Below, in pieces: positions 41,836-54,458 of a stretch of DNA of 64,000 nucleotides. Source of the stretch: Deltaproteobacteria bacterium (GTDB lineage: Bacteria; Myxococcota; Kuafuiibacteriia; Kuafuiibacteriales; Kuafuiibacteriaceae); assembly GCA_040218735.1 (NCBI GenBank), contig JAVJQW010000011.1, forward strand, positions 134,508-198,507, given 5' to 3'. Every line of letters begins with the position of its first letter. Position 1 is the stretch's first letter. The notes beneath the pieces were generated by a model. That model worked only from the letters and a program-made list of their open reading frames with translations, had not been told where the DNA came from and searched no databases. A program made the position numbers and the translations under genes.

Positions 41836-42372
41836 ATGTGGACCTGTGGCCTGTTCGTCCTGCTCGCGCTCGCGACACCCCAGGACTTCGACAAGGACGG
41901 CGTCGCGGACGTGGACGACGACTGCCCGACGGACCCGGGCAACCCGGCCAACAAGGGCTGCCCCGGGGACACGCCGCCTCCCCCGCCGCCGCCTCCCGCG
42001 ACGCCCGCGAAGATCGAGGTGTCGGGCGACCGCATCGAGATCGACGACACGATCGAGTTCAAGAGCGGGAGCGCCCGGGTCGATCCGAAGAGCTTTCAGC
42101 TCCTGGCGGAGGTCGCCGCCGCGATCCGCGGCCTCCCCGGTGCGCAGCGGGTCTCGGTCGAGGGCCACACCGACAACCGCGGAAGCGCCAAGCTCAACCG
42201 GCGGTTGTCGAAACAGCGCGCGCGCGCGGTCGTCGCCCACCTGGTGCGCAACGGGGTGGACCGGCGTCGCCTGAAGTTCGAAGGACACGGTGAGGATGAC
42301 CCGATCGCCACCAACGACACCCCCGCCGGCCGCAAGAAGAACCGCCGCGTGGATTTCCTCATCCTGCCTTAG
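41836..42372 (+). CDS. OmpA-family (OmpA_C-like) protein with a thrombospondin-type-3 Ca-binding motif and a poly-Pro linker.
   Basis: DKDGVADVDDDCPTDPGNP (TSP3), PPPPPPPP, and OmpA_C motifs VEGHTDNRGSAKLNRRLSKQRARAV...NRRVDF. Confidence 0.8.
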   Translation: MWTCGLFVLLALATPQDFDKDGVADVDDDCPTDPGNPANKGCPGDTPPPPPPPPATPAKIEVSGDRIEIDDTIEFKSGSARVDPKSFQLLAEVAAAIRGLPGAQRVSVEGHTDNRGSAKLNRRLSKQRARAVVAHLVRNGVDRRRLKFEGHGEDDPIATNDTPAGRKKNRRVDFLILP

Positions 42373-43072
42373 CCTCGCGGCGATCGGCTGCACGGCCCAG
42401 CCGCCCGAGATCCTCGACGCGATCGTCACCGGCTTGGAGCGGGGCGATCTGTCGCCGGCGAAGAAGTCGATCGACCCCGAATACGCCGATCCCCTCGGCG
42501 ACCGCGACGTGCTGCTCGAAGACCTCGCCGGCTTCGTCGAAAAGTACGGCAAGCGAAAGCTGGCTTTCACCGACCTGACGACCGGCGCCGACCCCAGCGC
42601 GCTGACGGCGACGCTCACGGGGCGCATGGACCTCGAGCTCGTCGGGCGCCCCACCTGGAAGGTCGTCGGGCCGGCGCAGCTGGAGTTCCGCCGGCAGGGC
42701 GCGTTCTTCGTGCGCAGCGGCCTGTTGTCCCACGTCCGCGACATCCAGCGGCTCATGGCGGCCCGCCGCGCCGCCCTCGAAGCCAACGATGCCGAGCAGA
42801 TGCGCCCCCTGCTGCACCCCCGCTACCGCGACCAAGACCTCGACGCCGACGACGCCGTCGAGCGCCTCGCCGCCGACCTGTCGGGGGTTCCCGTTCGACT
42901 GGAGGTGACGAACTACCGGGTCGAGCTGCGGGGCCCGACCGCCCACGTCGACGAGCACTACATCCTTTCGGTCAGGGACAAACGCATGCCGCCGAGCGTC
43001 GCCCGCTTCACGCTCGCCCGAACGGCGGGACGCTGGAAGATCATCGCCGGCCTGTACCCCGAACGGCCTTGA
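42296..43072 (+). CDS. Hypothetical lipoprotein. Its 5' end overlaps the 3' end of the OmpA-like gene by ~77 nt.
   Basis: Possible lipobox LSLAAIGC. No start codon exists downstream of the OmpA-like stop in this frame, so an overlap is required. The start is uncertain. Confidence 0.45.
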   Translation: MTRSPPTTPPPAARRTAAWISSSCLSLAAIGCTAQPPEILDAIVTGLERGDLSPAKKSIDPEYADPLGDRDVLLEDLAGFVEKYGKRKLAFTDLTTGADPSALTATLTGRMDLELVGRPTWKVVGPAQLEFRRQGAFFVRSGLLSHVRDIQRLMAARRAALEANDAEQMRPLLHPRYRDQDLDADDAVERLAADLSGVPVRLEVTNYRVELRGPTAHVDEHYILSVRDKRMPPSVARFTLARTAGRWKIIAGLYPERP

Positions 43073-43078
43073 ACCGGG

Positions 43079-44029
43079 GTGTCGTTCAGCATAGGGTCCG
43101 GCGAAATGCCGCAGGCGTACGCCCTGAGATTCATCTCCGGCAAGTACCAGGGCGGAGAGTTCCCGCTCACGAACGACCGCGAGATCGTCATTGGCCGGTC
43201 CTCGGAGCTGGACATGGTCCTCGTCGAGGACATGGTGTCGCGCAAGCACGCCAAGATCGCGACGCACACCGGACAGATCGTGATCATGGACATGGGGTCC
43301 ACGAATGGGACCTTCGTCAACGGCGAGAAGATCCGGAAGACCCGTCTCAAAGAGGGTGATCGCATCCTGATCGGGACGTCGATCCTCAAGGTCGTCGCTG
43401 CGTCCTCCAACGGCCCCGTCTCCCAGTCCGTCGCGCGGGAGCGCCTCGAAGAGGTCGGCAAGTCCGACGCGGGCAAGCAGTCCTCGATGAGCGGTACGCT
43501 CGAGGAGGTCCCGATCCCGGACCTGCTCCAGCTGTTCTCCACGTCGAAGCGCACCGGCGTCCTGCACATCAAGTCGGACCTCGGCTACGGCAAGATCTAC
43601 CTGCGCAACGGGAACATCTTCTACGCGTCGATCGACGACGACCACGACCTCGGTCCGATGAAGGCCCTGTGTCGCATCGTCGGTTGGGAAGAAGGCACGT
43701 TCGAGTTCGGACCGCCGGAGCCGGACGCCGAGTTCATGCTCGAGCTCGAAGACACCACGGAGTCCCTCCTCATGGAGGCGCTCCGCCAGCTCGACGAGTT
43801 CCGGCGCATCGCACCGAACCTCCCCGCGCCGCACGAGCGCCTCGCGCTCCCGCGCCCGCTCGAACCGCTCCTGTCGAACCTCAAGGCGCTCGAGCTCGAC
43901 GTCTTCCAGCTCATCCACAACCACGGGATGGCGCAGCACGTGTTCGATCAGTCCCCCGCGACGGACTACGAGACCGCCTCGGCGCTGCTGTCGTTGGTGT
44001 CGCAGGGTTACGTGCTTCGCGGCAGCTGA
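43079..44029 (+). CDS. FHA-domain protein with a C-terminal DUF4388 (PATAN-like) domain.
   Basis: FHA motifs GRSSELDMVLVEDMVSRKHAKI...TNGTFVNGEKI. DUF4388 motifs SGTLEEVPIPDLLQLFSTSKRTGVLHI. The start is at 43079 or at the ATG at 43106. Confidence 0.75.
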   Translation: MSFSIGSGEMPQAYALRFISGKYQGGEFPLTNDREIVIGRSSELDMVLVEDMVSRKHAKIATHTGQIVIMDMGSTNGTFVNGEKIRKTRLKEGDRILIGTSILKVVAASSNGPVSQSVARERLEEVGKSDAGKQSSMSGTLEEVPIPDLLQLFSTSKRTGVLHIKSDLGYGKIYLRNGNIFYASIDDDHDLGPMKALCRIVGWEEGTFEFGPPEPDAEFMLELEDTTESLLMEALRQLDEFRRIAPNLPAPHERLALPRPLEPLLSNLKALELDVFQLIHNHGMAQHVFDQSPATDYETASALLSLVSQGYVLRGS

Positions 44030-44059
44030 CGCGCCGAACCACGACGACGCGGATCGCGT

Positions 44060-44740
44060 CTACTCACCTTCACGCACGGGGTAGAGGCTCGGAGGGAAGT
44101 TCCCCGCGATGCCGCCGGACTGGTACTCGATGAAGTAGACGAGCGACCAGATGATCTCCTTCGAGAGGCGGTTCTCCCACGCGGGCATCTCGGAGTTGTT
44201 GCCGTTCACGACCTTCCCGCCCTTCGAGATCATTCGGAACATGTCCGCGTGCTGGCGCTGCTGGCCAAAGAAGAAACCTTGGCCCCCGCCCCAGTCGGAC
44301 GGCGGCGGCGGCATGCTGCGCGCGTCCGTCAGGCGACGCCGACCGCCGTGGCACTCGTTACAGAGCGCGGTCCACACCGACGCGGTCTCGATCGCGGTCT
44401 GCTCGTCCCAGAAGATCGCCGGGGCCCGGCGCTCGCTGATCTCCTCGTCGCGTTTCTTCGCCTGGACCAGGCTCAACCCCAGACGCTCACCGCGGAACTC
44501 GAACCACCGATCGCCGAGGTGCACGTCGAGCGCGCGGACGCGCTCCTCTTCCTTCCGCGTCAGCTCATAGGCCCGGCGGATCGGCGCGGGGTTCGACGCC
44601 CCCGGCTCCACGGTCGGCTCGATCGCGTCGGCGCCTGCGGGTTCGATCACCGCGCCCGAGTCGTTCTGGGCCGGTGCCGCGCACGCGGCGAACGCGAGCG
44701 CCGTCAGGAGGACCTGCCCCCTTCGACGACCGACATTCAT
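44060..44740 (-). CDS. Monoheme c-type cytochrome lipoprotein. Last gene of the kinase/cupredoxin operon.
   Basis: MNVGRRRGQVLLTALAFAACAAPAQ lipobox. CNECHGG heme motif. The C-terminal motif MPAWENRLSKEIIWSLVYFIEYQ is shared with the cytochrome at 53040-53558. ATGA overlap with the upstream gene. Confidence 0.75.
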   Translation of the reverse strand: MNVGRRRGQVLLTALAFAACAAPAQNDSGAVIEPAGADAIEPTVEPGASNPAPIRRAYELTRKEEERVRALDVHLGDRWFEFRGERLGLSLVQAKKRDEEISERRAPAIFWDEQTAIETASVWTALCNECHGGRRRLTDARSMPPPPSDWGGGQGFFFGQQRQHADMFRMISKGGKVVNGNNSEMPAWENRLSKEIIWSLVYFIEYQSGGIAGNFPPSLYPVREGE

Positions 44741-45645
44741 GGGTAGGAACCGTACGGCTTGCCGAACTTGTTCTTGTGCGTGCCCGTGCGCTTCGTCAGT
44801 GCGAGCTCGACGGACGCCGAACCGCTCCCGACGTTCGCCCACGCCGACGCGACCTCTGCGCCCGGCGCCCACGCGACGATCTTGCGCTTGCCCGTGGGCA
44901 CGCCGTCGATTCGGAACGTCCCGTCCGGCTGCACCTTCGCGAAGTGCCGGTTCGGGAGGATCAACACCGACGCCGCCATGCGCGGGTGGATGTTGCAGTA
45001 GAGGTCGACCACGCCCGGGCTCATGAAGCGGTACGACTTCGCGCCCTCGCCCGCGCGGTACAGACCGAGGTCGAACGTGTTGCCCGGCGAGAGGGAGAAG
45101 ACGTTGTGGTAGATCGCGTCGAGGTTCGGGAACTCGACCGTCGTCCCGCGCTCGATCACCGCCCAGTTCGGCGCGAAGCGTTTGTTCTGCTGTTTGATCG
45201 TGACGGAGCGGTTCTTCACCGCGCGACCGCGCACGTTCTCGATGAACACGTACGCGACGGGCTCGCCCTTCGGCACGCTCACCTTCCCCTCGACGGTGCC
45301 GCCGCCTCGGCTCGAGGTCGAACGACGCGAGGTCGTGGGTGGCGGCGCCTTGCGCGCCTTGGGCGGTGGAGGCGGCGGGGCCGAGCGCCCGTCCGTCTTC
45401 TCGGCGACCGCAGTCGAGCCCGCCGTTCGGTTCAGCAACCGACGCAGGACCTCCGAGCGACGTTTATCGAGCTCCGCGAGCTCGGACAGCGCCACGCGCA
45501 TGGATTCGAGATCGATCTTCAGCTGGCTGACTTCCCGTCGCAGCGCTTCCACGGTCTCGGCGGAAGCACCTTCCTCCTGAGCGAAGGTCCCGGCGGGGAG
45601 CGCAACACCGACCGCAGTCACCCAGGCGATCGTGGTCCTCTTCAT
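44737..45645 (-). CDS. Secreted type-1 copper (cupredoxin) protein with an N-terminal coiled-coil and a Pro-rich linker.
   Basis: Signal MKRTTIAWVTAVGVALPAGTFAQ. Ligand set H (YHNV) and C-x2-H-x2-M (YCNIHPRM), with amicyanin-like spacing. Pro-rich spacer PPPPPPKARKAPPP. Confidence 0.65.
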   Translation of the reverse strand: MKRTTIAWVTAVGVALPAGTFAQEEGASAETVEALRREVSQLKIDLESMRVALSELAELDKRRSEVLRRLLNRTAGSTAVAEKTDGRSAPPPPPPKARKAPPPTTSRRSTSSRGGGTVEGKVSVPKGEPVAYVFIENVRGRAVKNRSVTIKQQNKRFAPNWAVIERGTTVEFPNLDAIYHNVFSLSPGNTFDLGLYRAGEGAKSYRFMSPGVVDLYCNIHPRMAASVLILPNRHFAKVQPDGTFRIDGVPTGKRKIVAWAPGAEVASAWANVGSGSASVELALTKRTGTHKNKFGKPYGSYP

Positions 45646-46559
45646 CACGCCCTCCACGCGTACCACAGGAGCGCGATGCTCGCGACGCCGGTCAGAGCCA
45701 TCAAACCGATCAGCGCGATCACCACACCGAAGAAGTCCGGCGCCACGACGTGGTGGGGAACCAACCACACCACCCGCGCCGCAGCGCCGTCCGCGAGGTC
45801 TCGCACGATGAAGGCGTAGTCTGCGTCGGTGCTGTTCGCCAGCAGTCGCGCGACGACCGGCGACGGTGGTGCGCTCGCGCTCGCGGCCGAGACCTCCCGA
45901 CCGATCACCAACGCACCGTGTACGGAGAGCGCAGCCTCGATCGCCGTGAACGTCTCCGCGGGCACCGCGTTCCCGACGAGGAGCACGCCCGCGAGGCGGG
46001 GCCCGAGACGGACCCGCGCGGCGCCGATGTTCATGGCGCTGGTGCCGTAGGTCCACGACCCACCGGCCATGTCCTCGCCCCCGAGCAGTCGCTTGACGAC
46101 CTCGGAGGTCGACAGGTCGATCCCCTCGAGCTTCTGTTCCCCCGACGCCGCCGTCACCACCCCGGCCGGCGTCAGCAACGCGAGCAGCCCGGCGCCGCTG
46201 CTCGCCCGCACGTCGTCGAGGAGATCCCGCAGCGTCGCGGCGTCGATCCCCGGCGTCGCGAGCGTCGCGCGGACGCGACCGTCGTTGGCGATCACCGCGG
46301 CCTGCGACTCCAAGAGGTGATGCGCGGAGTCCTGCGACTGCTGGAACATGTGCTCCGCTGCCACGAGGCGGGCGTCGTCGATCGTTTGGTAACCGGCGCG
46401 GAGCCGCACCACACCGAAGAACGCAAACGCCCCGGCGGCCACGGTCAGCGCGACGGCGACCGCGATCCACCCCTTCGACGCCGACGGCGCCGGTTCGGGG
46501 GTCACGGTCCGCGTCGCGTTCGCTTCGAGGACCTGTAGATGCAACGGGGACCGAGTCAC
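45645..46559 (-). CDS. Bitopic/2-TM membrane protein with a ~230-aa periplasmic domain.
   Basis: TM1 WIAVAVALTVAAGAFAFFGVV. C-terminal TM FFGVVIALIGLMALTGVASIALLWYAW. Start and stop are both coupled by overlaps to the flanking genes. Confidence 0.55.
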   Translation of the reverse strand: MTRSPLHLQVLEANATRTVTPEPAPSASKGWIAVAVALTVAAGAFAFFGVVRLRAGYQTIDDARLVAAEHMFQQSQDSAHHLLESQAAVIANDGRVRATLATPGIDAATLRDLLDDVRASSGAGLLALLTPAGVVTAASGEQKLEGIDLSTSEVVKRLLGGEDMAGGSWTYGTSAMNIGAARVRLGPRLAGVLLVGNAVPAETFTAIEAALSVHGALVIGREVSAASASAPPSPVVARLLANSTDADYAFIVRDLADGAAARVVWLVPHHVVAPDFFGVVIALIGLMALTGVASIALLWYAWRA

Positions 46560-48328
46560 GTTCCCTCCATGACTTCGATCGTCTGCGTGCCGCTGAGCAC
46601 CTCGATCGTCTTGCTGGTCAGGATGTCGTCGGGCGTCTCGACGCGGAGGCGGTGTGCTCCGACCTCCAGCTCGACCGTCGCCCCGACCGCGACGGGCTCG
46701 TCGTCGATGAACAGGGTCGCGCCGTCCGGCACCCCCGCGAAGGACACGCGCCCCACGGTGGACTGCAACGCGAAGTCGAGGCGCTTCGACTTGTCACCGA
46801 CCTCGACCGTCGCGCTCTTCGGGACGTGCCCGGGTTTTTCGACGCGGATCTGTACGCTGCGCCCGCGCAGCAGATCGGAGAGCACGGTCGGCGTGAAGAC
46901 GCCGCGCGGCTGCCCGTCGACGAACACCATCGCGCCGGGCGGCGTCGAGGCGACCGCGACCGTTCCGTAACGCACGACCGGATTCGCGGGCGACTCCGAT
47001 TCGCCGCCGAGCACGAACGCGAGACCGCCGAACGCGAGGAGCACCGCGAGGCACACGCCGATGACCCAGCCCATCGAACGCCGCGGCGGGGCCGCTTCCG
47101 GGTTCACGGTCTCGGAGATGATCGACACGTCGACGAAGGATGCGGAAGGCTGCGCGGTGATCGACGAGCCCCCCGCCGCGGACGTCGACCACACCGGCCT
47201 CGAGTGCGTCACGGTCCGCACGGGCTCCGAGACGTCGAGCGCCGACTCGACCTGCGACCGCTTGGTGCGACGGCTCATTCGGATCGCGGCGGCGACGTTG
47301 CGCTCGAGATCCATCCCCTGCGCGACGGCGCGCTTCACGGCGGCGGCTTCGTCACCGAACAGCGACGTCAGCCACACGCCCGTCTCCCGCGCGCTGGGGC
47401 GGTTCGCGTGTAGCGCGAAGTACTCGTCGAGCGCGCTCGCGAGCGCCTCGGCGCTCGCGAAGCGTCGATCCGGATCGCGTTCCAACGCGCGCATCACGAT
47501 GCGGTCGACGATCTCGGGGAGCTCCGATCGTTGTCCGCTCGGCAGCGGGACGGCGGCGGTGCGCACCGCTTCGACCGTGAGCGCCTCCGCCTTCCGCTTG
47601 AAGAGCGGCTTCGTCATCAGCAGCTCCCACAGGAGTATGCCGAGCGCGAAGACGTCGGTGCGGCGATCGATCTTTCCGTCGACCAACTGCTCGGGTGCGG
47701 AGTGCGCGAGCTTGCCCTTGAAGCCACCGATGCGTGTGTCGCCGCGGTCGAGCATCGTCGCCTTCGCGATGCCGAAGTCGAGCACCTTCACGTCGCCGTG
47801 GTAGGTGACGATCACATTCGACGGGCTGATGTCTCGGTGAACGAGGTTCATCGGGTTGCCGTGCGGGTCCCGGAACTCGTGTGCGTAGTGCAGCCCTTCG
47901 GCGCACTGTTGGACGATCGCACACGCCATGCGGGTGGGCACGACGATCTGCTGCTTACGGCAACGCCGCAGGATCGACAGGACGTCCTCACCCGGCAGGT
48001 ACTCCATCGCGATGAAGTACTGCCCGTCCGACTCGCCGAGCTCGTGGGTCGCGACGACGTTCGGGTGGTGCAGCTGCGCTGCGATGCGCGCCTCGTCGAG
48101 GAACATCGCCTTGAAACGTTTGCTCTTCGCGAGGTGCGGCAGGACGCGCTTGAGCACGACGATCTTCGTGAACCCTTCGATGCCCTCCTGGACGGCGATG
48201 TAGATGTTCGCCATCCCGCCCTGCGCGAGTTTGCCGACGAGGCGGTAGCGGCCGATCGTGCGACCGGTCAGGCCTTCGTCCCAATCGCCCGTATCGGCCG
48301 CAGACCCATGTTCCCAACCCGTGCTCAC
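46556..48328 (-). CDS. Transmembrane Ser/Thr protein kinase with periplasmic PEGA domain(s).
   Basis: Hanks motifs LAQGGMANIYIAV, VVLKRV, HRDISPSNVIV, DFGIAKA, SAPE. TM MGWVIGVCLAVLLAFGGLAFVL. PEGA-like STPPGAMVFVDGQPRG. GTG start at 48328 is preferred. The longer Arg-rich N-terminal extension of the track ORF is rejected. Confidence 0.8.
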   Translation of the reverse strand: MSTGWEHGSAADTGDWDEGLTGRTIGRYRLVGKLAQGGMANIYIAVQEGIEGFTKIVVLKRVLPHLAKSKRFKAMFLDEARIAAQLHHPNVVATHELGESDGQYFIAMEYLPGEDVLSILRRCRKQQIVVPTRMACAIVQQCAEGLHYAHEFRDPHGNPMNLVHRDISPSNVIVTYHGDVKVLDFGIAKATMLDRGDTRIGGFKGKLAHSAPEQLVDGKIDRRTDVFALGILLWELLMTKPLFKRKAEALTVEAVRTAAVPLPSGQRSELPEIVDRIVMRALERDPDRRFASAEALASALDEYFALHANRPSARETGVWLTSLFGDEAAAVKRAVAQGMDLERNVAAAIRMSRRTKRSQVESALDVSEPVRTVTHSRPVWSTSAAGGSSITAQPSASFVDVSIISETVNPEAAPPRRSMGWVIGVCLAVLLAFGGLAFVLGGESESPANPVVRYGTVAVASTPPGAMVFVDGQPRGVFTPTVLSDLLRGRSVQIRVEKPGHVPKSATVEVGDKSKRLDFALQSTVGRVSFAGVPDGATLFIDDEPVAVGATVELEVGAHRLRVETPDDILTSKTIEVLSGTQTIEVMEGT

Positions 48329-48446
48329 GACGTCGTTCGTATCCGCCGGAAAAGGTAACGAGGTTCCGAGGTTCACGCCAGCAACTCGTGTGGACCGCGG
48401 GGGCGCGATTCGTATAGCAGTGAAGGCGGTGGCACGAAGTGACTCG

Positions 48447-49928
48447 ATGCTTCGCCGACTGACGCGCCTCGGAGGAGGCGGTGGTCGAAGTGCGCTCGAG
48501 AAGGCCCAACGCGCCATCGCCGCCAACGACCCGCGCACCGCAGCCGTGCACACCGAAGAGGCGTTTCGTCGCCTGTCCCCCGACGACGGCACCTCCTGGC
48601 TCCACCTGGGCGATCTCGTCACGATGCTGGATCGCCTCGAATCCGCCCAGCTCGCCTACGAACGTGCCGCACAGGACGCACGCGTTCGACCCACCGCGCT
48701 CGCGCGACTCGCGGCGCTTCACCTGCAGGAGGACCGCGGCGCGGACGCGGAGCAGGTCGCCACGATGGGGCTCGAAACCGCACCGCGCGACCCGATGCTG
48801 CGCTGGCTTCAGGCGCTCGGCGTGGAGAGGACCCGGGGGGCCGGTGCCGCACTGGAGCTGTTGCTCGACCTCGCACACGACGAACCGGAGTTCGTGCACG
48901 CGTACCGCGACGTAGGACGACTCTCGGCGAAGACCGACGACGTGTATGCATGCATCGAAGCCTGGCGCCGCGTGGTCGAGCTCGCGCCGGACGACTTGGA
49001 GGCGCAGACCGCGCTGGGGATCGCGCTGACGGAGGCCGGCGAGAACGACTACGGCGTGGAGGTGCTGGAGCGCGTCGTCGCGCGGAGGGGCGATCACCCG
49101 CCGTACGTCGCCAACCTCGGGCTCGCGCTGTTCCGGTCCCGGCGCCACGACGAAGCGCTCGACGTCCTGGAGCGAGCGACGGCGCGTTGGCCCGACGAAG
49201 CCCACGTGCTCGTCAACCTGGGCGTCGTGCTCGAGCAGCTCGAACACTACGACCGAGCGGTCACGGTGCTCCGTCGCGCCGTGGACGTCGCGCCGCACTT
49301 CGCACCGGCTCATTTCAACCTCGGCCACGCCCTGTCCGGCCGCGGTGAGACCGGCGCGGCCGCGCTCGCCTTCGCCCGGGCGGCGGAGCTGGCGCCCGAC
49401 GACCCCGAGATCCTGGCCGCGCGGCCCCCGGACGCGATGGAGGACAGCCTCACGGGGACGCTGTCTTCGTTGTCCTTGGATGCGCTCGTCGAGCTGATTC
49501 GCGCCCGGCGCACGAGCGGGCGCCTGATGATCGTGACGCCGGACGGCAACGCCTCGGCGCTGCACCTCGTCGAAGGCCAGGTGAGCTCGGCGCACGCGAC
49601 GGGCATCGATCTCGTCGACCGCATCGTTCGCAACGGTCTCGCGTCGCCGAACTTCCTCGATCGCATCGAAGACGACATCGACCCCCACCGTCACCCCGAG
49701 CGCGTGGGTGCCTTACTCGTAAGGAGGTTCGGCGCAGACCCGGCAGCTTGGCGTCGAGTCCTCCTGCAGCATACGGAAGTGTCTCTCGCGCGCATGCTCC
49801 ACCAGCGCGACGGGCGCTTTACGCTCGTCCACGAGTCGTTCCCGTCGTTCGGAATCGACGCCGATCCGCGATCGCTCATCGCGAAGATTCGCAGCGAGCA
49901 GACCCAAGACTTCGATCGGGATCGCTGA
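48447..49928 (+). CDS. TPR-repeat protein with a C-terminal DUF4388 (PATAN-like) domain.
   Basis: The ATG at 48447 gives MLRRLTRLGG. At least six TPR-like helical pairs. C-terminal LTGTLSSLSLDALVELIRARRTSGRLMI. Divergent from the kinase gene. Confidence 0.7.
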   Translation: MLRRLTRLGGGGGRSALEKAQRAIAANDPRTAAVHTEEAFRRLSPDDGTSWLHLGDLVTMLDRLESAQLAYERAAQDARVRPTALARLAALHLQEDRGADAEQVATMGLETAPRDPMLRWLQALGVERTRGAGAALELLLDLAHDEPEFVHAYRDVGRLSAKTDDVYACIEAWRRVVELAPDDLEAQTALGIALTEAGENDYGVEVLERVVARRGDHPPYVANLGLALFRSRRHDEALDVLERATARWPDEAHVLVNLGVVLEQLEHYDRAVTVLRRAVDVAPHFAPAHFNLGHALSGRGETGAAALAFARAAELAPDDPEILAARPPDAMEDSLTGTLSSLSLDALVELIRARRTSGRLMIVTPDGNASALHLVEGQVSSAHATGIDLVDRIVRNGLASPNFLDRIEDDIDPHRHPERVGALLVRRFGADPAAWRRVLLQHTEVSLARMLHQRDGRFTLVHESFPSFGIDADPRSLIAKIRSEQTQDFDRDR

Positions 49929-49961: not shown

Positions 49962-51374
49962 GTGATTGAGCTATTCCGACCGTCGGTGAGAAGCGCGACG
50001 ATCGCGGTAGTCCTGCCCCTGCTCCTCCTCGCGTCCACGGCGCACGCTCAAGAAGACGACGACGGCGGGAGTGACATCGCGCCAAGCCTTCCTCCGATCG
50101 AAGACGAAGAGTCCGATCCGGCGCTCGACGAGATTTACGATCGCCTCGACGAGATCGAGGAACGCCTCAACGGTCCCGACCCGTCGACGTACGCGATCCG
50201 TGGAATCGAAGTGGACCTGAACGGCTACGTCGACTTCGGCTTCTTCGTTCCGATCGGCAACGACGGTGTCGGTTGGGTGCAGGACTTCGGCAACGCCGCG
50301 TTCCCCGAGTACCAAGGTCAGTACGGCTGGGTCTTCCTGGGCGACATCCTCGCGACGACCGTCAACTCACGCGGTGAGGCGGCGGACCTCGGCGACGCAC
50401 CGGGCGCGAACCGATTCGACTCGATCAACTCGCGCGGCGCGCCCGGCTTCGCCGTCAACGAGTTCAACCTTCGGCTCCAAGCGGAGCTCGGCGCCGACGT
50501 CGTGCTGCGCACCAGCGTCAACTTCGTCCCCCGCACCGGCAACGAGTTCGCGCTCGGCGACTTCGTCGAAGTCGACCTCGCGGAGATGGAGTGGATCCTG
50601 ACCGAGGACGGCGGCACTTCGATCTTCGTCGGCAAGTCGCTGCCGACGTTCGGCATCGAGTACAAGATTCGGAAGTCGGATCAGCGGCGCGGCGTCACGC
50701 CGTCCTTGATCCACCGCTACACGTCGGGCTCGCAGCTCGGCCTCAAGATTCGCAGCAAGCTGCTCGACGACTGGGTCGTGCTGGCGGCGTCGGTCACGAA
50801 CAACTCGATGACGACCGAGCAGTTCCACTTCTACGACGAGATCGACAGCAACATCGGCAAGACGCTCAACGGTCGCGCGGCGGTGCGCATCCCGATCGGT
50901 CGCTTCATCTCCGCCGCCACCGGGCACACGTTGGAGATCGGCGCGTCGGGAACGTTCGGCGCGCAGGACCGCGCGCTCGATAGCGAGGACAACATGTGGT
51001 TCGTCGGCGTGGACTTCGAGTACCGCGCGACGTCCTTCGGTGTGCGCGGCCAGTGGATCCGCGGCGGCGCCCCCGGCAACCCGGAGGACGGCGTGTGGAT
51101 GCTGGACCTGAACGACTCCGGGTACGTCGAGCTCGACTGGCTCGTGTTGCCGTTCCTCGGGCTCCACGTGCGCGGCGGGATGCGCGACGCGTTCGTCGCG
51201 CTCGGGACCGAGCGCGCCTATCTCACCAAGAACTACCGCGTCACGGCGGGTGCGCAGTTCGTGTTCACCCCGCAGATCACGCTGAAGACCGAATATCTCT
51301 ACAACGGAGAGTTTGGTGGCGTGGCATCCTTTACCAACGACATCTTCACTTCGTCGTTGCTGCTGAAGTTCTGA
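49962..51374 (+). CDS. Outer-membrane beta-barrel protein (porin-like) with an acidic N-terminal region.
   Basis: Signal MIELFRPSVRSATIAVVLPLLLLASTAHA. Alternating amphipathic strands. C-terminal ...SSLLLKF with a terminal Phe. Confidence 0.65.
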   Translation: MIELFRPSVRSATIAVVLPLLLLASTAHAQEDDDGGSDIAPSLPPIEDEESDPALDEIYDRLDEIEERLNGPDPSTYAIRGIEVDLNGYVDFGFFVPIGNDGVGWVQDFGNAAFPEYQGQYGWVFLGDILATTVNSRGEAADLGDAPGANRFDSINSRGAPGFAVNEFNLRLQAELGADVVLRTSVNFVPRTGNEFALGDFVEVDLAEMEWILTEDGGTSIFVGKSLPTFGIEYKIRKSDQRRGVTPSLIHRYTSGSQLGLKIRSKLLDDWVVLAASVTNNSMTTEQFHFYDEIDSNIGKTLNGRAAVRIPIGRFISAATGHTLEIGASGTFGAQDRALDSEDNMWFVGVDFEYRATSFGVRGQWIRGGAPGNPEDGVWMLDLNDSGYVELDWLVLPFLGLHVRGGMRDAFVALGTERAYLTKNYRVTAGAQFVFTPQITLKTEYLYNGEFGGVASFTNDIFTSSLLLKF

Positions 51375-51390
51375 AGCGAGGTCATTCGAG

Positions 51391-53040
51391 ATGAAGCGCG
51401 CATACAACATCCTCGGCGCCGCGATCGTCGCGAGCGCGTTCGGGTCGACGTCTTGTGACTCGCTGTGCGGAGACGCGAGCTGCCGAATCACCGAAGCGGA
51501 GTGGACCCGCATCAGCTCGCTCGCCGGGCTCGGCGATCCGATGCCGGACCCGGTGAACAAGTACGCGGGCGTCGGCGACGTCGCCGCGGAGACACTCGGG
51601 CAGCAGTTCTACTTCGACGGTCGGTTCTCCGGCGTGTCGAGGCAGCGCGACACCCTCGGGCGCTTCGTCGGTACGGGACGTGCGCCGCTCGGTGACCAGA
51701 TCAACACGTCGTGCGCGGACTGCCACGACCCGCGCAACGGCGGCACCGACCGCACCTCGTCGCCGGGGCACGTGTCGGTCGGCGCGGGCTGGTACGACGT
51801 CAACTCGCAGGCGACGGTGAACTCGGCGTACTACCAGGTGAAGTACTGGAACGGTCGCTACGACTCCCTCGTCTGGCAGATCCTCGCGGTGAACGAGAGC
51901 GGCGTGTCGCAGAACTCGACGCGCCTCAAGGACGCGTGGCTCATCCACGACCTCTACCTCGACGCGTACAACCAGGTGTTCGGCGACGACCACCCATTCC
52001 CGTTCGACTACCGCGACGACGGCCTCACACGTTCCTCGATGATCTCCATGCTGGAGCCGGACGGGACGTGCACGTTGGTCCAGACTTCGTCGACCGCGGA
52101 CCCGACCTGCCCGCTCGAAACCACGTCCGGCCAACCGCTCTGCCACGAGGTCGACAACGGCGGAACGACGCTCTGCCTCCCGCTATGGCCGCCGAACGGT
52201 AAGCCGGGGAACAAGATCAACGGCGACACGGACTGTGACCTCGCGGCCTTCTCACCGGGTACGGATCCGCAGTCCGACAACTTCGACGCGTTCGACTGCA
52301 TGCCCGACGACAACCAGAGCGACATCACGCGGGTGTACGTGAACTTCGCGAAGGCGATCGCCGCGTACGAGTACCTGCTCGTGAGCAAGAACTCGGCGTT
52401 CGACAAGTGGGTCGAAGAAGGCGCGGACTCGGAGCTCATCTCGGCGAGCGCGCGGCGCGGGGCACGGCTGTTCGTCGGCAAGGCAGCTTGCATCGACTGT
52501 CACAACACGCCGCTGATGTCCGACGACCTGTTCCACAACATCGGCGTTCCGCAGGTCGGCGCCGCGGTGCCGACGGAGGCGGACTGCCCCGAGGGTGCGA
52601 GCTGCGACTGTGTCACGCCGGACTCGAGGAGCTGTCGAGCGTGGGGCGCCTACGGCGGGCTGTTTGCGCTGCAGGGCGGCTCGAACCGCGGCGACAACTG
52701 CGACAACGCGTTCGTCGACGCGTGCAACGACACGCGCCAGCCCTACTACGACCTGGAGATCACCGACGCCTTCAAGGGCGCGTGGCGCACGCCGTCGCTG
52801 CGTTCGGTCGCGCTGACGGCGCCGTACATGCACAGCGGTGCGCTCCAGACGCTGCAGGACGTCGTCGAGCACTACAACTACGGAGGCACCCGCGACGGCG
52901 CGGCGACCGACCAGCTCTCGGTTCGAATCGCGCCGCTCGGCCTGACGGACCGCGAGATCCTGGACCTCGTGGCGTTCCTCGAATCCCTGAACGGCGAGGC
53001 GCTCCCGCTCGACCTCGTCACCTCACCCGAGTTGCCCTGA
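51391..53040 (+). CDS. Diheme cytochrome c peroxidase family protein (CCP/MauG-like), secreted.
   Basis: Heme motifs CADCHD and CIDCHNTPLMSDDLFHNIGVPQ, the canonical CCP second-heme block. Signal peptide present. Confidence 0.8.
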   Translation: MKRAYNILGAAIVASAFGSTSCDSLCGDASCRITEAEWTRISSLAGLGDPMPDPVNKYAGVGDVAAETLGQQFYFDGRFSGVSRQRDTLGRFVGTGRAPLGDQINTSCADCHDPRNGGTDRTSSPGHVSVGAGWYDVNSQATVNSAYYQVKYWNGRYDSLVWQILAVNESGVSQNSTRLKDAWLIHDLYLDAYNQVFGDDHPFPFDYRDDGLTRSSMISMLEPDGTCTLVQTSSTADPTCPLETTSGQPLCHEVDNGGTTLCLPLWPPNGKPGNKINGDTDCDLAAFSPGTDPQSDNFDAFDCMPDDNQSDITRVYVNFAKAIAAYEYLLVSKNSAFDKWVEEGADSELISASARRGARLFVGKAACIDCHNTPLMSDDLFHNIGVPQVGAAVPTEADCPEGASCDCVTPDSRSCRAWGAYGGLFALQGGSNRGDNCDNAFVDACNDTRQPYYDLEITDAFKGAWRTPSLRSVALTAPYMHSGALQTLQDVVEHYNYGGTRDGAATDQLSVRIAPLGLTDREILDLVAFLESLNGEALPLDLVTSPELP

Positions 53041-53558
53041 TGCGAAGAACATCCTGGCTCCTGTGCGCCGCCCTCGGGTGCGCATCGTCCTCCACCTCGA
53101 ACACGATCGAGCCGGACGCACCGCGCCCGAAGGTCGGTGCGGCGTGGTTCACGATGCGCGCGCAGCAGCTCGGCGTCTCCATGACGGACGCGAAGAAACG
53201 CGACGCGACGTTCGACCCGGGGACGGTGCCGACCGACTTCTGGAACCCGGCGACGGCGACGAACACCGGCGCGGTGTGGAACGCGCTGTGCGCGGAGTGC
53301 CACGGCGGCCAGATGGATCCGGGTGACGCCGCGAAGCTCCCCGCGCCCGCGGTGGGCTGGGGCACCGGCACGGGACGCATCTTCGCGGAGGACCGCCCGC
53401 TGCCGGCGGCGTACGCGAAGATCTTCGACGGCTCCGACGACCCGAAGAAGATGCCGCCGTGGAAGGACAGACTCTCGCGCGAGCAGATCTGGGCGCTCGT
53501 GCACTTCGTCGAGCAGCTCTCGAACACCGCCTCGGCGCGTGTGTACCTCGAAAAGTAG
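53040..53558 (+). CDS. Monoheme c-type cytochrome lipoprotein.
   Basis: TGATG overlap with the CCP gene. MRRTSWLLCAALGCASS lipobox. CAECHGG. The C-terminal motif MPPWKDRLSREQIWALVHFVEQ is paralogous to the one at 44060-44740. Confidence 0.75.
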   Translation: MRRTSWLLCAALGCASSSTSNTIEPDAPRPKVGAAWFTMRAQQLGVSMTDAKKRDATFDPGTVPTDFWNPATATNTGAVWNALCAECHGGQMDPGDAAKLPAPAVGWGTGTGRIFAEDRPLPAAYAKIFDGSDDPKKMPPWKDRLSREQIWALVHFVEQLSNTASARVYLEK

Positions 53559-53567
53559 TAGCCGCGG

Positions 53568-54332
53568 TCAGCCCGGCAGCACGCCGGTCTCGACCTGGAG
53601 CTGGTGAAGGCGCGTTTCGGCGTCGCCGTGGATGCGGACGTCCTTGGCGTTCGCTTCCGCGAGGGCGTGGACGAAGAACTCGTCGAGCGGGTGGGTGTCG
53701 CGTTCGTTCCACGCGTCGACGATCGCCTTGTGTCTCGCCCACCGCTCGAGCGCGAGCTCGACGTGCCCGAGGAACGCGCGCTCGTCTTCCGGTCGAATCG
53801 CGTAGGCGACCGGGCACGCCACCGAGCCGGGGCCGCCCCGTTGGGTGTCGGTCGCCCAGCCGACGGGGTACGTGCGGCACCCGGTCGGGCGCGCCGCGTA
53901 GACGCCGCAGCGCTGGTAGCCGCCGATGTCGACGAGCTGGTTGCACCGCCCGGTCTCGGGGTCATGGATCAGCTCGAGCTCGGCGTGGCCGGTCCAGCCG
54001 ACGGCGGCGTGCTGGATGCGGGGGTCCGCCTCGACGGCGAAGCTGTGTTCGTGCGGTGCGACGGTGCGGACGACGAGCGCCGCCGACAGGGGTACGTCGA
54101 TCGACCGACACAGCGCGACGGCGTCGTCCACGGCGACCTTCACGCGCAGGTGGCAGCAGTGCGCCGGGCACACGGCGCAGGGTTCGACGACGGGTCGGTA
54201 GGGCGCGATCTTCGTGGTGGGGACGCCGTTTTCGTCGCAGCGGGGCGTCAACGGGTGCGGCGTCAGGCGAAGCACGTCGGACACTCGGCCGAGGATGCCT
54301 GACTTCGCGCGCTTTTGCCGCAACCCGCACAT
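53568..54332 (-). CDS. YkgJ-family (CxxCxxCC) Zn/Fe-S cluster protein.
   Basis: CAVCPAHCCHLRV. ATG at 54330-54332. Confidence 0.65.
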   Translation of the reverse strand: MCGLRQKRAKSGILGRVSDVLRLTPHPLTPRCDENGVPTTKIAPYRPVVEPCAVCPAHCCHLRVKVAVDDAVALCRSIDVPLSAALVVRTVAPHEHSFAVEADPRIQHAAVGWTGHAELELIHDPETGRCNQLVDIGGYQRCGVYAARPTGCRTYPVGWATDTQRGGPGSVACPVAYAIRPEDERAFLGHVELALERWARHKAIVDAWNERDTHPLDEFFVHALAEANAKDVRIHGDAETRLHQLQVETGVLPG

Positions 54333-54458
54333 GGCCCCACCGATAACCACAATCAGCGCGGCGTGTCGCTTGTGTCCCTGCGACCCGCCCATCCCCCGCG
54401 ACGGACGACTGGGCCGGTCGTCCGTCGCGGATCCCAATTTCCTTCGTATCCTCGCGTC

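What the first reader, a model, noticed from the sequence alone, without database searches (positions are those of the whole stretch)
44060..48328. Translationally coupled operon: PEGA-domain Ser/Thr kinase -> 2-TM periplasmic protein -> blue-copper cupredoxin -> cytochrome c, bracketed by FHA-DUF4388 and TPR-DUF4388 genes
Four minus-strand genes are chained by 4-nt overlaps: stop/start shared at 46556-46559, 45645 and 44737-44740 (ATGA/TGATG).
- A Hanks-type kinase whose extracytoplasmic part carries PEGA motif(s).
- A membrane protein with a large periplasmic loop.
- A secreted type-1 copper protein with H/C-x2-H-x2-M, amicyanin-like spacing.
- A monoheme cytochrome c lipoprotein.

Immediately flanking are an FHA (phospho-Thr reader) protein fused to DUF4388 at 43079-44029, and a divergently transcribed TPR-DUF4388 protein at 48447-49928. 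Coupling a periplasmic two-carrier electron-transfer pair to a eukaryote-like kinase plus FHA reader suggests a redox/copper-sensing phospho-signalling module. I am not aware of such a module being characterised.
Basis: partly seen in the sequence, partly recalled or inferred. Interest (0 to 1): 0.72.

Follow-up and report, generated by a model that had tools for sequence, protein, structure and literature searches.

The report
Blue-copper protein wired to Ser/Thr signalling
The four overlapping genes are real and belong to a larger, uncharacterised cell-envelope module, conserved in two bacterial phyla, in which a blue-copper protein always sits beside a membrane sensor that controls serine/threonine phosphorylation.

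Summary
Four minus-strand genes are chained by stop/start overlaps, and the same overlaps recur in 18 related loci.

- **Products.** An intact Hanks kinase with a periplasmic PEGA part. An amicyanin-like type-1 copper protein with a coiled coil and a transthyretin-like domain. A monohaem cytochrome c lipoprotein.
The divergent operon belongs to the unit: TPR-PATAN, a BBP2-type porin, a MauG/MbnH-type di-haem enzyme with the Tyr ligand, and a paralogous cytochrome c.
- **Conservation.** In 70 of 76 informative loci from Myxococcota and Acidobacteriota, the copper protein lies within 3.5 kb of a same-strand Ser/Thr kinase or PP2C phosphatase domain. Chance expectation is about 0.1.
- **Fusions.** The sensor domain that is free-standing here is elsewhere fused to a kinase, or to HAMP-PP2C.
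- **FHA-PATAN.** This neighbour is not conserved.

Best reading: the copper protein is the periplasmic partner of the sensor and reports redox, oxidant or copper status. The stimulus and the physical contact are inferred. I found no published description.

The parts
46556..48328 (-). Hanks-type Ser/Thr kinase: cytoplasmic kinase domain, one TM helix, periplasmic PEGA part. The start may instead be GTG 48376.
   Evidence: Pkinase 1.8e-34 and PEGA 4e-11. VLK, HRD164, DFG184 and APE211 intact; the hydrophobic stretch MGWVIGVCLAVLLAFGGLAFVLGG (my reading as the TM helix) precedes the PEGA part. Orthologues with the same Pkinase-PEGA order in 17 related loci; the kinase part is cut off in L005.
45645..46559 (-). 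Stand-alone double-Cache (dCache) extracytoplasmic sensor flanked by two TM helices, with no output domain.
   Evidence: AF2 pLDDT 80. Foldseek hits to the DctB, KinD, Tlp3 and LuxQ sensor domains, best E 4.5e-9. Homologues carry PF14827 or PF17203. The family HMM hits the N-terminal sensor of Cache-(HAMP)-SpoIIE and Cache-HAMP-Pkinase proteins next to the copper protein elsewhere, with E from 1e-20 to 1e-6.
44737..45645 (-). Secreted type-1 copper protein: signal peptide, coiled coil (residues 28-75), Pro-rich linker, amicyanin-like cupredoxin domain (H180, C217-x2-H220-x2-M223), transthyretin-like domain, and a conserved H-x-N-K-x-G-x-x-Y-G-S-Y tail.
   Evidence: The family has more than 4199 clusters and 579 hits in species-representative genomes.
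44060..44740 (-). Monohaem class-I cytochrome c lipoprotein (cyt c-1).
   Evidence: Cytochrome_CBB3 27.1 bits against a cutoff of 27. One CNECH. 40% identical (E 1e-35) to cyt c-2. Present with one CxxCH in all window-type loci.
48329..48446 (.). 118-bp divergent intergenic region between the two operons.
   Evidence: Read directly from the sequence. No sigma-70-like match. The divergent arrangement recurs in 12 of 14 window-type loci with enough upstream sequence.
48447..49928 (+). TPR + PATAN (DUF4388/PatA_N) cytoplasmic protein, first gene of the divergent operon.
   Evidence: TPR families plus DUF4388 2.7e-10. Conserved in position in window-type loci.
49962..51374 (+). Outer-membrane beta-barrel porin (BBP2/OmpL-like) with an N-terminal acidic and coiled-coil segment. 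No cysteine; ends in Phe.
   Evidence: No hit for the window protein itself. Its relatives (33-66% identical) hit PF07642 BBP2 at 46.5 and 28.5 bits. Found in 61 of 82 loci, directly upstream of the copper protein in types B and C.
51391..53040 (+). MauG/MbnH-type di-haem enzyme (two CxxCH; Tyr in the position of the MauG Tyr294 haem ligand).
   Evidence: CCP_MauG 1.5e-17. MauG and MbnH NCBIfam models about 120 bits, below cutoff. The C-terminal part best matches MbnH 6e1c at 8e-13, and an ungapped alignment places the window Tyr on MauG Tyr294. The H+14 Tyr is present in 50 of 56 cluster-linked enzymes.
53040..53558 (+). Second monohaem cytochrome c lipoprotein (cyt c-2), a paralogue of cyt c-1, with a TGATG overlap on the di-haem gene.
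   Evidence: Cytochrome_CBB3 39.9 bits. Also present in L084.
43079..44029 (+). FHA + PATAN protein, convergent neighbour. Not a conserved part of the module.
   Evidence: FHA 1.8e-20 and DUF4388 2.2e-23. Adjacent only in L084, the 94%-identical relative. Absent next to the operon in all other loci.
44046..44060 (.). GC-rich hairpin GACGCG-ATC-CGCGTC in the 30-bp gap between the convergent cyt c-1 and FHA-PATAN genes.
   Evidence: Read from the sequence. It has no T-run and was not called by the terminator scan.

Best explanation
This is a cell-envelope sensory module built around a blue-copper protein.

**The two operons.**
- One operon makes, in fixed proportion: a Hanks Ser/Thr kinase with a periplasmic PEGA part, a stand-alone double-Cache membrane sensor, a secreted amicyanin-like type-1 copper protein (CUP), and a cytochrome c lipoprotein.
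- The divergent operon makes a TPR-PATAN protein, an outer-membrane porin, a MauG/MbnH-type di-haem enzyme and a second cytochrome c.

**Proposed mechanism.**
1. CUP docks on the dCache sensor, in the way LuxP docks on LuxQ.
2. The sensor, acting together with the kinase in the membrane, converts the state of CUP into Ser/Thr phosphorylation in the cytoplasm.
3. The state reported is most likely Cu(I)/Cu(II), that is, periplasmic electron supply versus oxidant.
4. The cytochromes c feed electrons to CUP. The di-haem enzyme withdraws them when peroxide or another oxidant enters through the porin.
5. PATAN-domain proteins are candidate downstream partners.

**Shown.** Gene structure, folds, ligand conservation, synteny, domain fusions.

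**Inferred.** The CUP-sensor contact, the direction of electron flow, the stimulus, the output.
For: 1. The operon is translationally coupled, and the coupling is conserved in 18 loci.
2. 70 of 76 informative loci have a same-strand Pkinase or SpoIIE domain within 3.5 kb of CUP. Background is about 0.11 kinase domains per 7 kb.
3. Rosetta-stone evidence. The sensor domain that is free-standing here is fused N-terminally to the kinase in Polyangia type B (hhalign 77.5%, E 1.9e-5). It is fused to HAMP-Pkinase in Acidobacteriota, and to HAMP-SpoIIE with RsbW- and STAS-like genes following (seen in L078) in Kofleriaceae, Nannocystis and Polyangium. In each case the gene lies next to CUP.
4. The sensor has a dCache fold, like the LuxQ and DctB periplasmic domains.
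5. CUP has an intact and invariant type-1 copper site with the short amicyanin loop C-x2-H-x2-M.
6. A porin is part of the neighbourhood in both phyla. It is BBP2-like in Myxococcota and Porin_5-like in nine Thermoanaerobaculia loci.
7. Redox partners accompany CUP in Myxococcota. These are the di-haem enzyme in 51 of 82 loci, monohaem cytochromes here, and 4-5-haem cytochromes in 23 of 27 type C loci.
8. Established knowledge: cupredoxins and cytochromes c donate electrons to bacterial di-haem peroxidases, and amicyanin works with the MauG-matured MADH.
Against: - No experiment and no complex prediction links CUP to the sensor. Adjacency cannot tell a co-sensor from a co-regulated electron carrier.
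- dCache domains usually bind small molecules, so the sensor may have a ligand of its own.
- The di-haem enzyme carries the MauG-type Tyr ligand, which points to protein oxidation rather than simple peroxide reduction.
- In Acidobacteriota neither a cytochrome nor a di-haem enzyme lies nearby, so the redox partners are not part of the universal core.
- The kinase substrate is unknown, and the FHA protein is not conserved.
- The Pfam cupredoxin models do not reach threshold on CUP.
Confidence: 0.45

Rival explanations
1. Copper-status sensing or copper handling. CUP reports copper availability through its apo or holo state rather than its redox state. The porin admits copper. The MauG/MbnH-like enzyme and the cytochromes serve copper acquisition or detoxification, as in MbnH-MbnP or MopE/CorA-CorB, or as in the M. 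xanthus curA/CorSR cluster.
For: - The C-terminal half of the di-haem enzyme is closest to MbnH (6e1c, 8e-13). It also matches the MbnH-family NCBIfam model at 119.6 bits.
- MbnH matures a copper-binding partner protein (PMC11951088).
- The M. xanthus curA operon combines a cupredoxin-domain protein, a PF13442 cytochrome c and a sensor kinase, and it confers copper tolerance (PMC3707914).
Against: - None of the ten cluster and flanking products scanned is an MbnP, MopE or CorA homologue, a copper ATPase, a multicopper oxidase or a Cus/Cop component.
- The MbnH score is far below the family cutoff of 362.
- CUP has a classical buried type-1 electron-transfer site, not a chaperone-type site.
- The signalling is through an STK or PP2C, not a CopS/CusS-type histidine kinase.
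Confidence: 0.2
2. A periplasmic oxidative or electron-transfer pathway that is merely regulated by the kinase. The dCache sensor binds the small-molecule substrate or inducer that enters through the porin. CUP and the cytochromes are ordinary electron carriers, comparable to amicyanin and cytochrome c551i, and the di-haem enzyme is the catalyst or maturase.
For: - dCache domains characteristically bind small ligands; the top structural matches are DctB with succinate or malonate, KinD with pyruvate, and Tlp3 with amino acids.
- The cupredoxin is amicyanin-like and is accompanied by a MauG-like enzyme and a cytochrome c, as in mau clusters.
- Type C loci carry penta-haem cytochromes with weak MtrC/c7-like matches.
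Against: - No dehydrogenase or oxidase is encoded in either operon or conserved in the relatives. There is no MADH, quinoprotein or terminal oxidase.
- In Acidobacteriota the conserved set is only CUP, sensor-kinase and porin, which leaves no enzyme for CUP to serve.
- CUP is translationally coupled to the sensor rather than to an enzyme.
Confidence: 0.2
3. The MauG-type enzyme installs a protein-derived modification on a cluster partner, and that modification is what makes the sensor functional. Possible targets are CUP, with its invariant Trp and Tyr residues and H-x-N-K-x-G-x-x-Y-G-S-Y tail, or the PEGA or dCache ectodomain.
For: - The Tyr-His type haem ligand is conserved in 50 of 56 cluster-linked enzymes.
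- This ligation distinguishes MauG, BthA and MbnH, which form bis-Fe(IV), from Met-His peroxidases (PMC6405878; PMC11951088).
- In type B the genes for the di-haem enzyme, porin, CUP and sensor-kinase are contiguous on one strand, and in L024 successive ORFs overlap by a few bases.
Against: - The CUP tail and core are just as conserved in Acidobacteriota, where no di-haem enzyme is nearby.
- No target residue can be nominated from sequence alone.
- BthA-like Tyr-His enzymes keep peroxidase activity.
Confidence: 0.1
4. Fortuitous adjacency of unrelated genes, or mis-called starts that create spurious overlaps.
For: Overlapping stop/start codons and long spurious ORFs are frequent at 69% G+C. 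An example is the 577-aa ORF at 44737-46470, which runs through the sensor gene.
Against: - The gene order and the -4 junctions are conserved in 18 loci at 25-55% protein identity.
- The CUP-signalling linkage holds in 70 of 76 loci across two phyla.
- Independent gene calls on public contigs give the same genes.
Confidence: 0.02

Closest known systems
LuxP-LuxQ and TorT-TorS type sensors that read a periplasmic partner protein
   Same: A double-PDC/dCache periplasmic sensor domain; LuxQ is among the structural matches. It is encoded next to a soluble periplasmic protein.
   Different: The partner here is a type-1 copper redox protein, not a solute-binding protein. The output is a Hanks kinase on a separate polypeptide, or a fused STK or PP2C elsewhere, rather than a histidine kinase. 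The contact itself is not shown.
Methylamine utilisation (mau) system: MADH, amicyanin, cytochrome c551i, MauG
   Same: A cupredoxin with the amicyanin C-x2-H-x2-M loop, a c-type cytochrome, and a di-haem enzyme with the MauG Tyr ligand.
   Different: There are no MauA/MauB dehydrogenase genes or other mau genes. CUP carries an extra coiled coil and a transthyretin-like domain. Scores are far below the NCBIfam cutoffs for amicyanin (18.7 vs 110) and MauG (121.7 vs 444). The cluster is linked to Ser/Thr signalling and a porin.
MbnH-MbnP (and MopE/CorA-CorB) copper-binding protein maturation pairs
   Same: A MauG-family di-haem enzyme encoded with a periplasmic copper protein. The window enzyme's C-terminal half is closest to MbnH 6e1c.
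   Different: There is no MbnP, MopE or CorA homologue. The copper site of CUP is a canonical His2-Cys-Met type-1 site. MbnH family score is 119.6 against a cutoff of 362.85.
Bacterial di-haem cytochrome c peroxidase with cupredoxin or cytochrome c donors (pseudoazurin, azurin)
   Same: A periplasmic di-haem CCP_MauG-family enzyme together with a small cupredoxin and monohaem cytochromes c.
   Different: The six-coordinate haem ligand position carries Tyr, not the Met of canonical peroxidases. The enzyme is about 550 aa with large inserts.
Myxococcus xanthus curA/CorSR copper-tolerance operon (PMC3707914)
   Same: A Myxococcota cluster that combines a cupredoxin-domain protein, a PF13442 cytochrome c and an envelope sensor kinase.
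   Different: curA uses a Cupredoxin_1 His-rich protein, a multicopper oxidase, a P1B ATPase and a histidine kinase with a sigma-54 regulator. None of these is present here.
Cyc2-rusticyanin and porin-cytochrome (MtrAB/PioAB) electron conduits
   Same: An outer-membrane barrel encoded with a cupredoxin and c-type cytochromes. Type C relatives carry penta-haem cytochromes.
   Different: The porin has no cysteine and no haem motif, so it is not Cyc2-like. The window has no deca-haem MtrA-type cytochrome.

Membership tests
Hanks-type (eukaryote-like) Ser/Thr protein kinase | Pkinase fold with the catalytic Lys (VAIK), HRD, DFG and APE motifs | tested here: met
   Pkinase 1.8e-34. VLK, HRD164, DFG184 and APE211 present; the Gly loop is degenerate.
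PEGA domain | Match to PF08308 above the gathering score, on the extracytoplasmic side of a TM helix | tested here: met
   43.1 bits against a cutoff of 20.8, at residues 455-521, C-terminal to the hydrophobic stretch read as the TM helix.
dCache (double PDC) extracytoplasmic sensor domain | A long N-terminal helix followed by two PDC lobes between two TM helices | tested here: met
   AF2 secondary structure. Foldseek hits to DctB, KinD, Tlp3 and LuxQ down to 4.5e-9. PF14827 or PF17203 on homologues.
dCache (double PDC) extracytoplasmic sensor domain | A defined small-molecule ligand pocket | not testable with these tools
The conserved residues (D93, R95, R97, D106, T109, D112) lie in helices of the distal lobe.
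Type-1 (blue) copper cupredoxin, amicyanin/plastocyanin class | Greek-key cupredoxin fold | tested here: met
Type-1 (blue) copper cupredoxin, amicyanin/plastocyanin class | His ... Cys-x2-His-x2-Met ligand set conserved | tested here: met
   H180, C217, H220 and M223 invariant in 29 sequences. The pattern is found in 80 of 83 loci; the three misses are in Vicinamibacteria loci, at least one of them (L059) cut at the contig end.
Type-1 (blue) copper cupredoxin, amicyanin/plastocyanin class | Curated profile score (Pfam Copper-bind or Cupredoxin_1; NCBIfam amicyanin) | tested here: not met
   No Pfam cupredoxin hit at E<0.01. TIGR02657 gives 18.7 bits against a cutoff of 110.2. This is a divergent cupredoxin, not an amicyanin orthologue.
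Type-1 (blue) copper cupredoxin, amicyanin/plastocyanin class | Binds copper, with blue absorption and the EPR signature | not testable with these tools
   Requires purified protein.
Class I cytochrome c | A single CxxCH, a distal Met, and a profile match | tested here: met
   CNECH and an MPAW motif. PF13442 gives 27.1 against 27.0. The paralogue cyt c-2 scores 39.9 bits, and the two share 40% identity.
MauG-type di-haem enzyme (as opposed to canonical bCCP) | Two CxxCH in a CCP_MauG fold | tested here: met
   PF03150 1.5e-17. Two haem motifs.
MauG-type di-haem enzyme (as opposed to canonical bCCP) | Tyr rather than Met as distal ligand of the six-coordinate haem | tested here: met
   An ungapped alignment places the window Tyr (VVEHY) on MauG Tyr294, and it aligns with Tyr in MbnH and BthA. 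Conserved in 50 of 56. Ligation itself is inferred from the alignment.
MauG-type di-haem enzyme (as opposed to canonical bCCP) | Orthology to MauG or MbnH (NCBIfam cutoffs) with the cognate substrate gene (mauA/mauB or mbnP) nearby | tested here: not met
   121.7 bits against 443.85 and 119.6 against 362.85. None of the ten products scanned is a MauA/B or MbnP family member.
BBP2/OmpL-like outer-membrane porin | Profile match, signal peptide, C-terminal aromatic residue | tested here: inconclusive
   The window protein has no significant hit. Relatives 33-66% identical score 46.5 and 28.5 bits on PF07642 against a cutoff of 26.2. A signal peptide and terminal Phe are present.
FHA phosphothreonine-binding domain | Profile match with the conserved Gly-Arg, Ser-x-x-His and Asn-Gly residues | tested here: met
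   PF00498 1.8e-20. GR, SRKH and NG are visible in the sequence. Membership of the module is not met, because the adjacency is not conserved.
PATAN (DUF4388/PatA_N) domain | Match to PF14332 above the cutoff | tested here: met
   83 bits for the FHA protein and 40.8 bits for the TPR protein, against a cutoff of 25.
Cyc2-type fused cytochrome-porin | A CxxCH haem motif at the N-terminus of the barrel | tested here: not met
   The 470-aa porin contains no cysteine.

The most novel reading that the evidence does not exclude
A blue-copper protein serves as the extracytoplasmic receptor subunit of eukaryote-like Ser/Thr signalling. Its Cu(I)/Cu(II) state is set by cytochromes c and by a MauG-type di-haem oxidant sensor fed through a dedicated porin. 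That state is read by a specialised dCache domain and transmitted to a Hanks kinase, or to a PP2C partner-switching module. In this lineage it may pass on to PATAN-domain proteins, which in cyanobacteria act on the type IV pilus motor. This would be a redox- or oxidant-guided behavioural circuit in gliding Myxococcota. It would be the first case of a cupredoxin used as a signalling input.
Probability: 0.3. Interest if true: 0.8.

Novelty: new variant of a known kind. Interest (0 to 1): 0.62.

Why it matters
- **Ser/Thr kinase inputs.** Myxococcota encode many Hanks kinases, and to my knowledge the inputs of most are unknown. This module offers a defined and widely conserved candidate input pathway: a copper redox protein, a specialised dCache sensor and a porin. 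It can be tested in cultured carriers.
- **Cupredoxins.** It would extend the roles of cupredoxins from electron carriers to signalling partners.
- **MauG-type enzymes.** It gives a large orphan branch of Tyr-ligated MauG/MbnH-like di-haem enzymes a conserved genomic context, which helps the search for their substrates.
- **Sensor evolution.** The same sensor domain occurs free, fused to a kinase, or fused to a PP2C phosphatase. That makes it a clean natural experiment in how one periplasmic input is rewired to different outputs.

Tried and rejected
- A single-sequence homology search for the sensor found only 3 relatives. It had to be repeated with an alignment of orthologues taken from the fetched loci.
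- Foldseek against afdb50 was not available, so no UniProt names or model-organism orthologues were obtained.
- The promoter and terminator scan was uninformative. It found 0 promoter-like sites, and terminator-like sites at chance level.
- Six literature searches found no description of the module. The first attempt failed on syntax.
- Considered and rejected:
  - Cyc2-like cytochrome-porin: the barrel has no Cys.
  - A genuine mau or Mbn cluster: no MauA/B or MbnP, and scores are far below the cutoffs.
  - A canonical peroxidase: Tyr sits in place of Met.
  - The FHA-PATAN protein as a module component: it is not syntenic outside the 94%-identical relative.
  - The CUP C-terminal tail as a MauG- or porin-specific feature: the tail is equally conserved in Acidobacteriota, which lack both.

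Full report
**Setting.** The window is about 69% G+C. It carries housekeeping genes on both sides of the region, read from the product sequences: ribosomal and tRNA-modification genes, glycolysis genes, mreB-like. The locus is therefore chromosomal. The closest public relatives are Myxococcota/Polyangia metagenome-assembled genomes.

**Check of the observation.**
- The ORF table and junction sequences confirm four co-directional minus-strand genes.
  - Kinase, 46556-48328. The alternative start is GTG 48376.
  - 2-TM protein, 45645-46559.
  - Copper protein, 44737-45645.
  - Cytochrome c, 44060-44740.
- The junctions are GTGA, TGATG (or GTGATG) and ATGA. GGAGG-type ribosome-binding sites precede the second and third genes.
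- At this G+C content long spurious ORFs abound. One 577-aa ORF runs in the copper-protein frame through the sensor gene. The starts were therefore checked against orthologues. In 18 related loci the same four genes occur in the same order, and nearly every junction is again a 4-nt overlap. Independent gene calls on public contigs agree.

**What the four products are.**
- *Kinase.* Pkinase 1.8e-34 and PEGA 4e-11. The catalytic Lys, HRD, DFG and APE motifs are intact. A hydrophobic stretch that I read as a TM helix precedes the C-terminal PEGA part.
- *'2-TM protein'.* It has no Pfam hit.
  - An alignment-based search found a family of about 300-aa proteins, some carrying dCache_3 or sCache_3_2.
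  - The AF2 model (pLDDT 80) is TM, long helix, two PDC lobes, TM.
  - It matches the DctB, KinD, Tlp3 and LuxQ sensor domains, with best E 4.5e-9.
  - An exhaustive profile search gives only 542 representative clusters, most of them about 300 aa. This is a narrow, specialised sensor family.
- *Copper protein (CUP).*
  - It misses the Pfam cupredoxin thresholds. NCBIfam amicyanin scores 18.7 bits against a cutoff of 110.
  - It matches a NirK C-terminal cupredoxin domain at 5e-6.
  - H180, C217, H220 and M223, with the short amicyanin loop C-x2-H-x2-M, are invariant. The pattern is found in 80 of 83 loci.
  - CUP also has an N-terminal coiled coil, a Pro-rich linker and a universally conserved C-terminal H-x-N-K-x-G-x-x-Y tail.
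- *Cytochrome c.* It is at the Pfam threshold (27.1 vs 27.0). It has one CNECH, a Met motif and a lipobox. A 40%-identical paralogue scores 39.9 bits.

Neighbourhoods of CUP homologues that are 46-54% identical show a larger conserved unit.
- Diverging from the kinase operon is a second operon:
  - TPR-PATAN, 48447-49928.
  - A 470-aa outer-membrane protein, 49962-51374.
  - A di-haem CCP_MauG protein, 51391-53040.
  - In the window and in L084, a second cytochrome c lipoprotein, 53040-53558, which overlaps the di-haem gene by TGATG.
- The 470-aa protein has no cysteine, an N-terminal coiled coil and a terminal Phe. Its relatives score above threshold on the BBP2 porin family.
- The di-haem enzyme is not a canonical peroxidase.
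  - Its C-terminal half is closest to MbnH, at 8e-13.
  - An ungapped alignment places its Tyr (…VVEHY…) on MauG Tyr294.
  - That Tyr is present in 50 of 56 cluster-linked enzymes.
  - Tyr-His ligation is the hallmark that separates MauG, BthA and MbnH from Met-His peroxidases (PMC6405878; PMC11951088).

**Comparative genomics.** A scan of species-representative genomes found 579 CUP relatives. The best 80 loci come from Polyangia, Kofleriaceae, Nannocystaceae and Haliangiales, and from the acidobacterial classes Thermoanaerobaculia and Vicinamibacteria. Mapping window proteins and domain profiles onto them gives four layouts.

| Type | Taxa | Layout |
|---|---|---|
| A (window) | Polyangia-like | di-haem <- porin <- TPR-PATAN <-> kinase-PEGA -> dCache -> CUP -> cyt c |
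| B | Polyangia | di-haem -> porin -> CUP -> [sensor-TM-kinase] |
| C | Kofleriaceae, Nannocystis, Polyangium | di-haem … porin -> CUP -> 4-5-haem cytochrome -> [dCache-HAMP-SpoIIE/PP2C]; RsbW-like and STAS genes follow in L078 |
| D | Acidobacteriota | CUP -> [dCache-HAMP-kinase] -> Porin_5-like porin |

- In type B, successive ORFs in L024 overlap by a few bases.
- In type C, the 4-5-haem cytochrome is present in 23 of 27 loci.
- In type D, the porin follows in nine Thermoanaerobaculia loci.
- A profile built only from the free-standing sensors detects the sensor part of the type C proteins at 1e-20 to 1e-10, and of some type D proteins at about 1e-6.
- The type B N-termini align to that profile by profile-profile comparison, with probability 77.5% and E 1.9e-5. 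They share the motif (V/I)D(G/A)ATL(V/R)DL.
- Overall, 70 of 76 loci with enough flanking DNA have a same-strand kinase or PP2C domain within 3.5 kb of CUP. The background is about 0.11 kinase domains per 7 kb in the same loci.
- The porin family is present in 61 of 82 loci and the di-haem enzyme in 51 of 82.
- The FHA-PATAN gene is adjacent only in the 94%-identical relative L084 and nowhere else. TPR-PATAN is conserved in 12 of 14 type A loci with enough upstream sequence.

**Interpretation.**
- *Shown.* CUP, a specialised dCache sensor, a Ser/Thr phospho-signalling output and an outer-membrane porin form a conserved unit across two phyla. In Myxococcota this unit is joined by a Tyr-type di-haem enzyme and by c-type cytochromes of variable haem number.
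- *Strong inference.* The fusions are Rosetta-stone evidence that the free-standing sensor in the window works with the adjacent PEGA kinase.
- *Weaker inference.* CUP is translationally coupled to, or directly adjacent to, the sensor in every layout. The most economical reading is that CUP is the sensor's periplasmic partner, comparable to LuxP with LuxQ. The sensed quantity would then be the state of its copper site, either redox state or occupancy. The cytochromes would act as reductants. The di-haem enzyme would act as an oxidant-dependent electron sink, or as a maturase. The porin would be the access route.
- *Alternatives that the data cannot exclude.* They are scored separately in the rival explanations.
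  - Copper-status sensing.
  - A regulated electron-transfer pathway in which the sensor binds a small ligand.
  - A MauG-installed protein modification.
- *Against a purely metabolic role.* No dehydrogenase or oxidase is present in any layout. The acidobacterial minimal set is only CUP, sensor-kinase and porin.
- *Candidate outputs.* PATAN domains are known from cyanobacterial regulators that act on the type IV pilus motor (title of bioRxiv 10.1101/2021.06.11.447907). The TPR-PATAN protein is therefore a candidate output in type A. This is speculation.

**Comparison with known systems.** Each part belongs to a known superfamily. The cluster fails the membership tests for the following:
- a mau cluster: no MADH genes, and sub-threshold amicyanin and MauG scores;
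- an MbnPH pair: no MbnP;
- a canonical peroxidase chain: Tyr in place of Met;
- a Cyc2-type conduit: no haem motif in the barrel;
- the M. xanthus curA/CorSR copper operon (PMC3707914).

I found no paper describing a cupredoxin linked to a Cache sensor and a Ser/Thr kinase or PP2C. The library does not cover subscription journals.

**Verdict.**
- The sensor identity and the porin/MauG-type operon are essential additions.
- The FHA protein should be dropped.
- The stimulus is still unknown.

I rate this a new variant of accessory-protein-dependent envelope sensing, of solid interest (0.62). About 0.45 confidence attaches to the co-sensor mechanism, and near-certainty to the genes forming one functional unit.

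Noticed in passing
window 49962-53558 (+): Outside the given coordinates, a porin, a Tyr-type MauG/MbnH-like di-haem enzyme and a second cytochrome c lipoprotein form an operon with the TPR-PATAN gene. The last two genes overlap by TGATG, as in the kinase operon.
   Followed up: yes
window 44737-45645 (-), residues 290-301; all CUP loci: The C-terminal motif H-x-[NR]-K-x-[GN]-x-x-Y (HKNKFGKPYGSY here) is conserved in every CUP, including the short acidobacterial forms. Its role is unknown: an extra metal ligand, a docking peptide or a modification site are all possible.
   Followed up: partly
L033-L083 (type C), e.g. L078:10762-11727 and L078:13582-14450: In Kofleriaceae, Nannocystis and Polyangium a 4-5-haem cytochrome sits between CUP and a dCache-HAMP-SpoIIE phosphatase. 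It gives weak MtrC/c7-like matches. In L078, RsbW-like and STAS genes follow, so the same input appears to feed a partner-switching module.
   Followed up: partly
L053, L054, L062, L063, L067, L070, L071, L073, L077: Thermoanaerobaculia carry a minimal version, CUP -> dCache-HAMP-kinase -> Porin_5-like porin, with no di-haem enzyme or cytochrome found near CUP. In L067 a small, unannotated 134-aa ORF follows the porin.
   Followed up: partly
window 49962-50200 and 45430-45565: Both the porin and CUP begin, after their signal peptides, with a coiled-coil segment. The two might pair in the periplasm. JGI names some CUP homologues 'Lpp-like' for this stretch.
   Followed up: no
window 44046-44060: A perfect GC-rich hairpin (GACGCG ATC CGCGTC) fills half of the 30-bp gap between the convergent cytochrome c and FHA-PATAN genes. 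It may be a bidirectional terminator without a T-run.
   Followed up: no
window 40321-41781 (-), 41836-42372 (+), 42290-43072 (+): Beyond the FHA-PATAN gene lie a TPR + cyclic-nucleotide-binding protein, an OmpA-family protein and a possible DUF4440-like protein (sub-threshold match). The same genes are present in the 94% relative L084 but not in more distant loci.
   Followed up: partly
L001:10146-12405: In one type A relative the cytochrome c is followed by an MshEN-domain protein and a PAS-GGDEF-EAL protein. This hints at a link to c-di-GMP and pilus-type ATPase regulation in that genome.
   Followed up: no
window 44737-46470 (-) and many others: Longest-ORF calling badly over-extends genes here. 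A 577-aa ORF in the CUP frame spans the whole sensor gene, and the kinase ORF extends 98 codons upstream of the likely start. Automatic annotation of the 94% relative (L084) gives the kinase orthologue 552 aa, which in window coordinates would correspond to a start inside the Gly loop.
   Followed up: partly
window 53568-54437 (-) and 54315-55343 (+): Next to the module lie a Cys-rich protein and an Fpg/Nei-type DNA glycosylase. In L084 the orthologue of the first gives a faint CxxCxxCC match. The glycosylase is an oxidative-damage repair enzyme. Conservation with the module was not examined.
   Followed up: no
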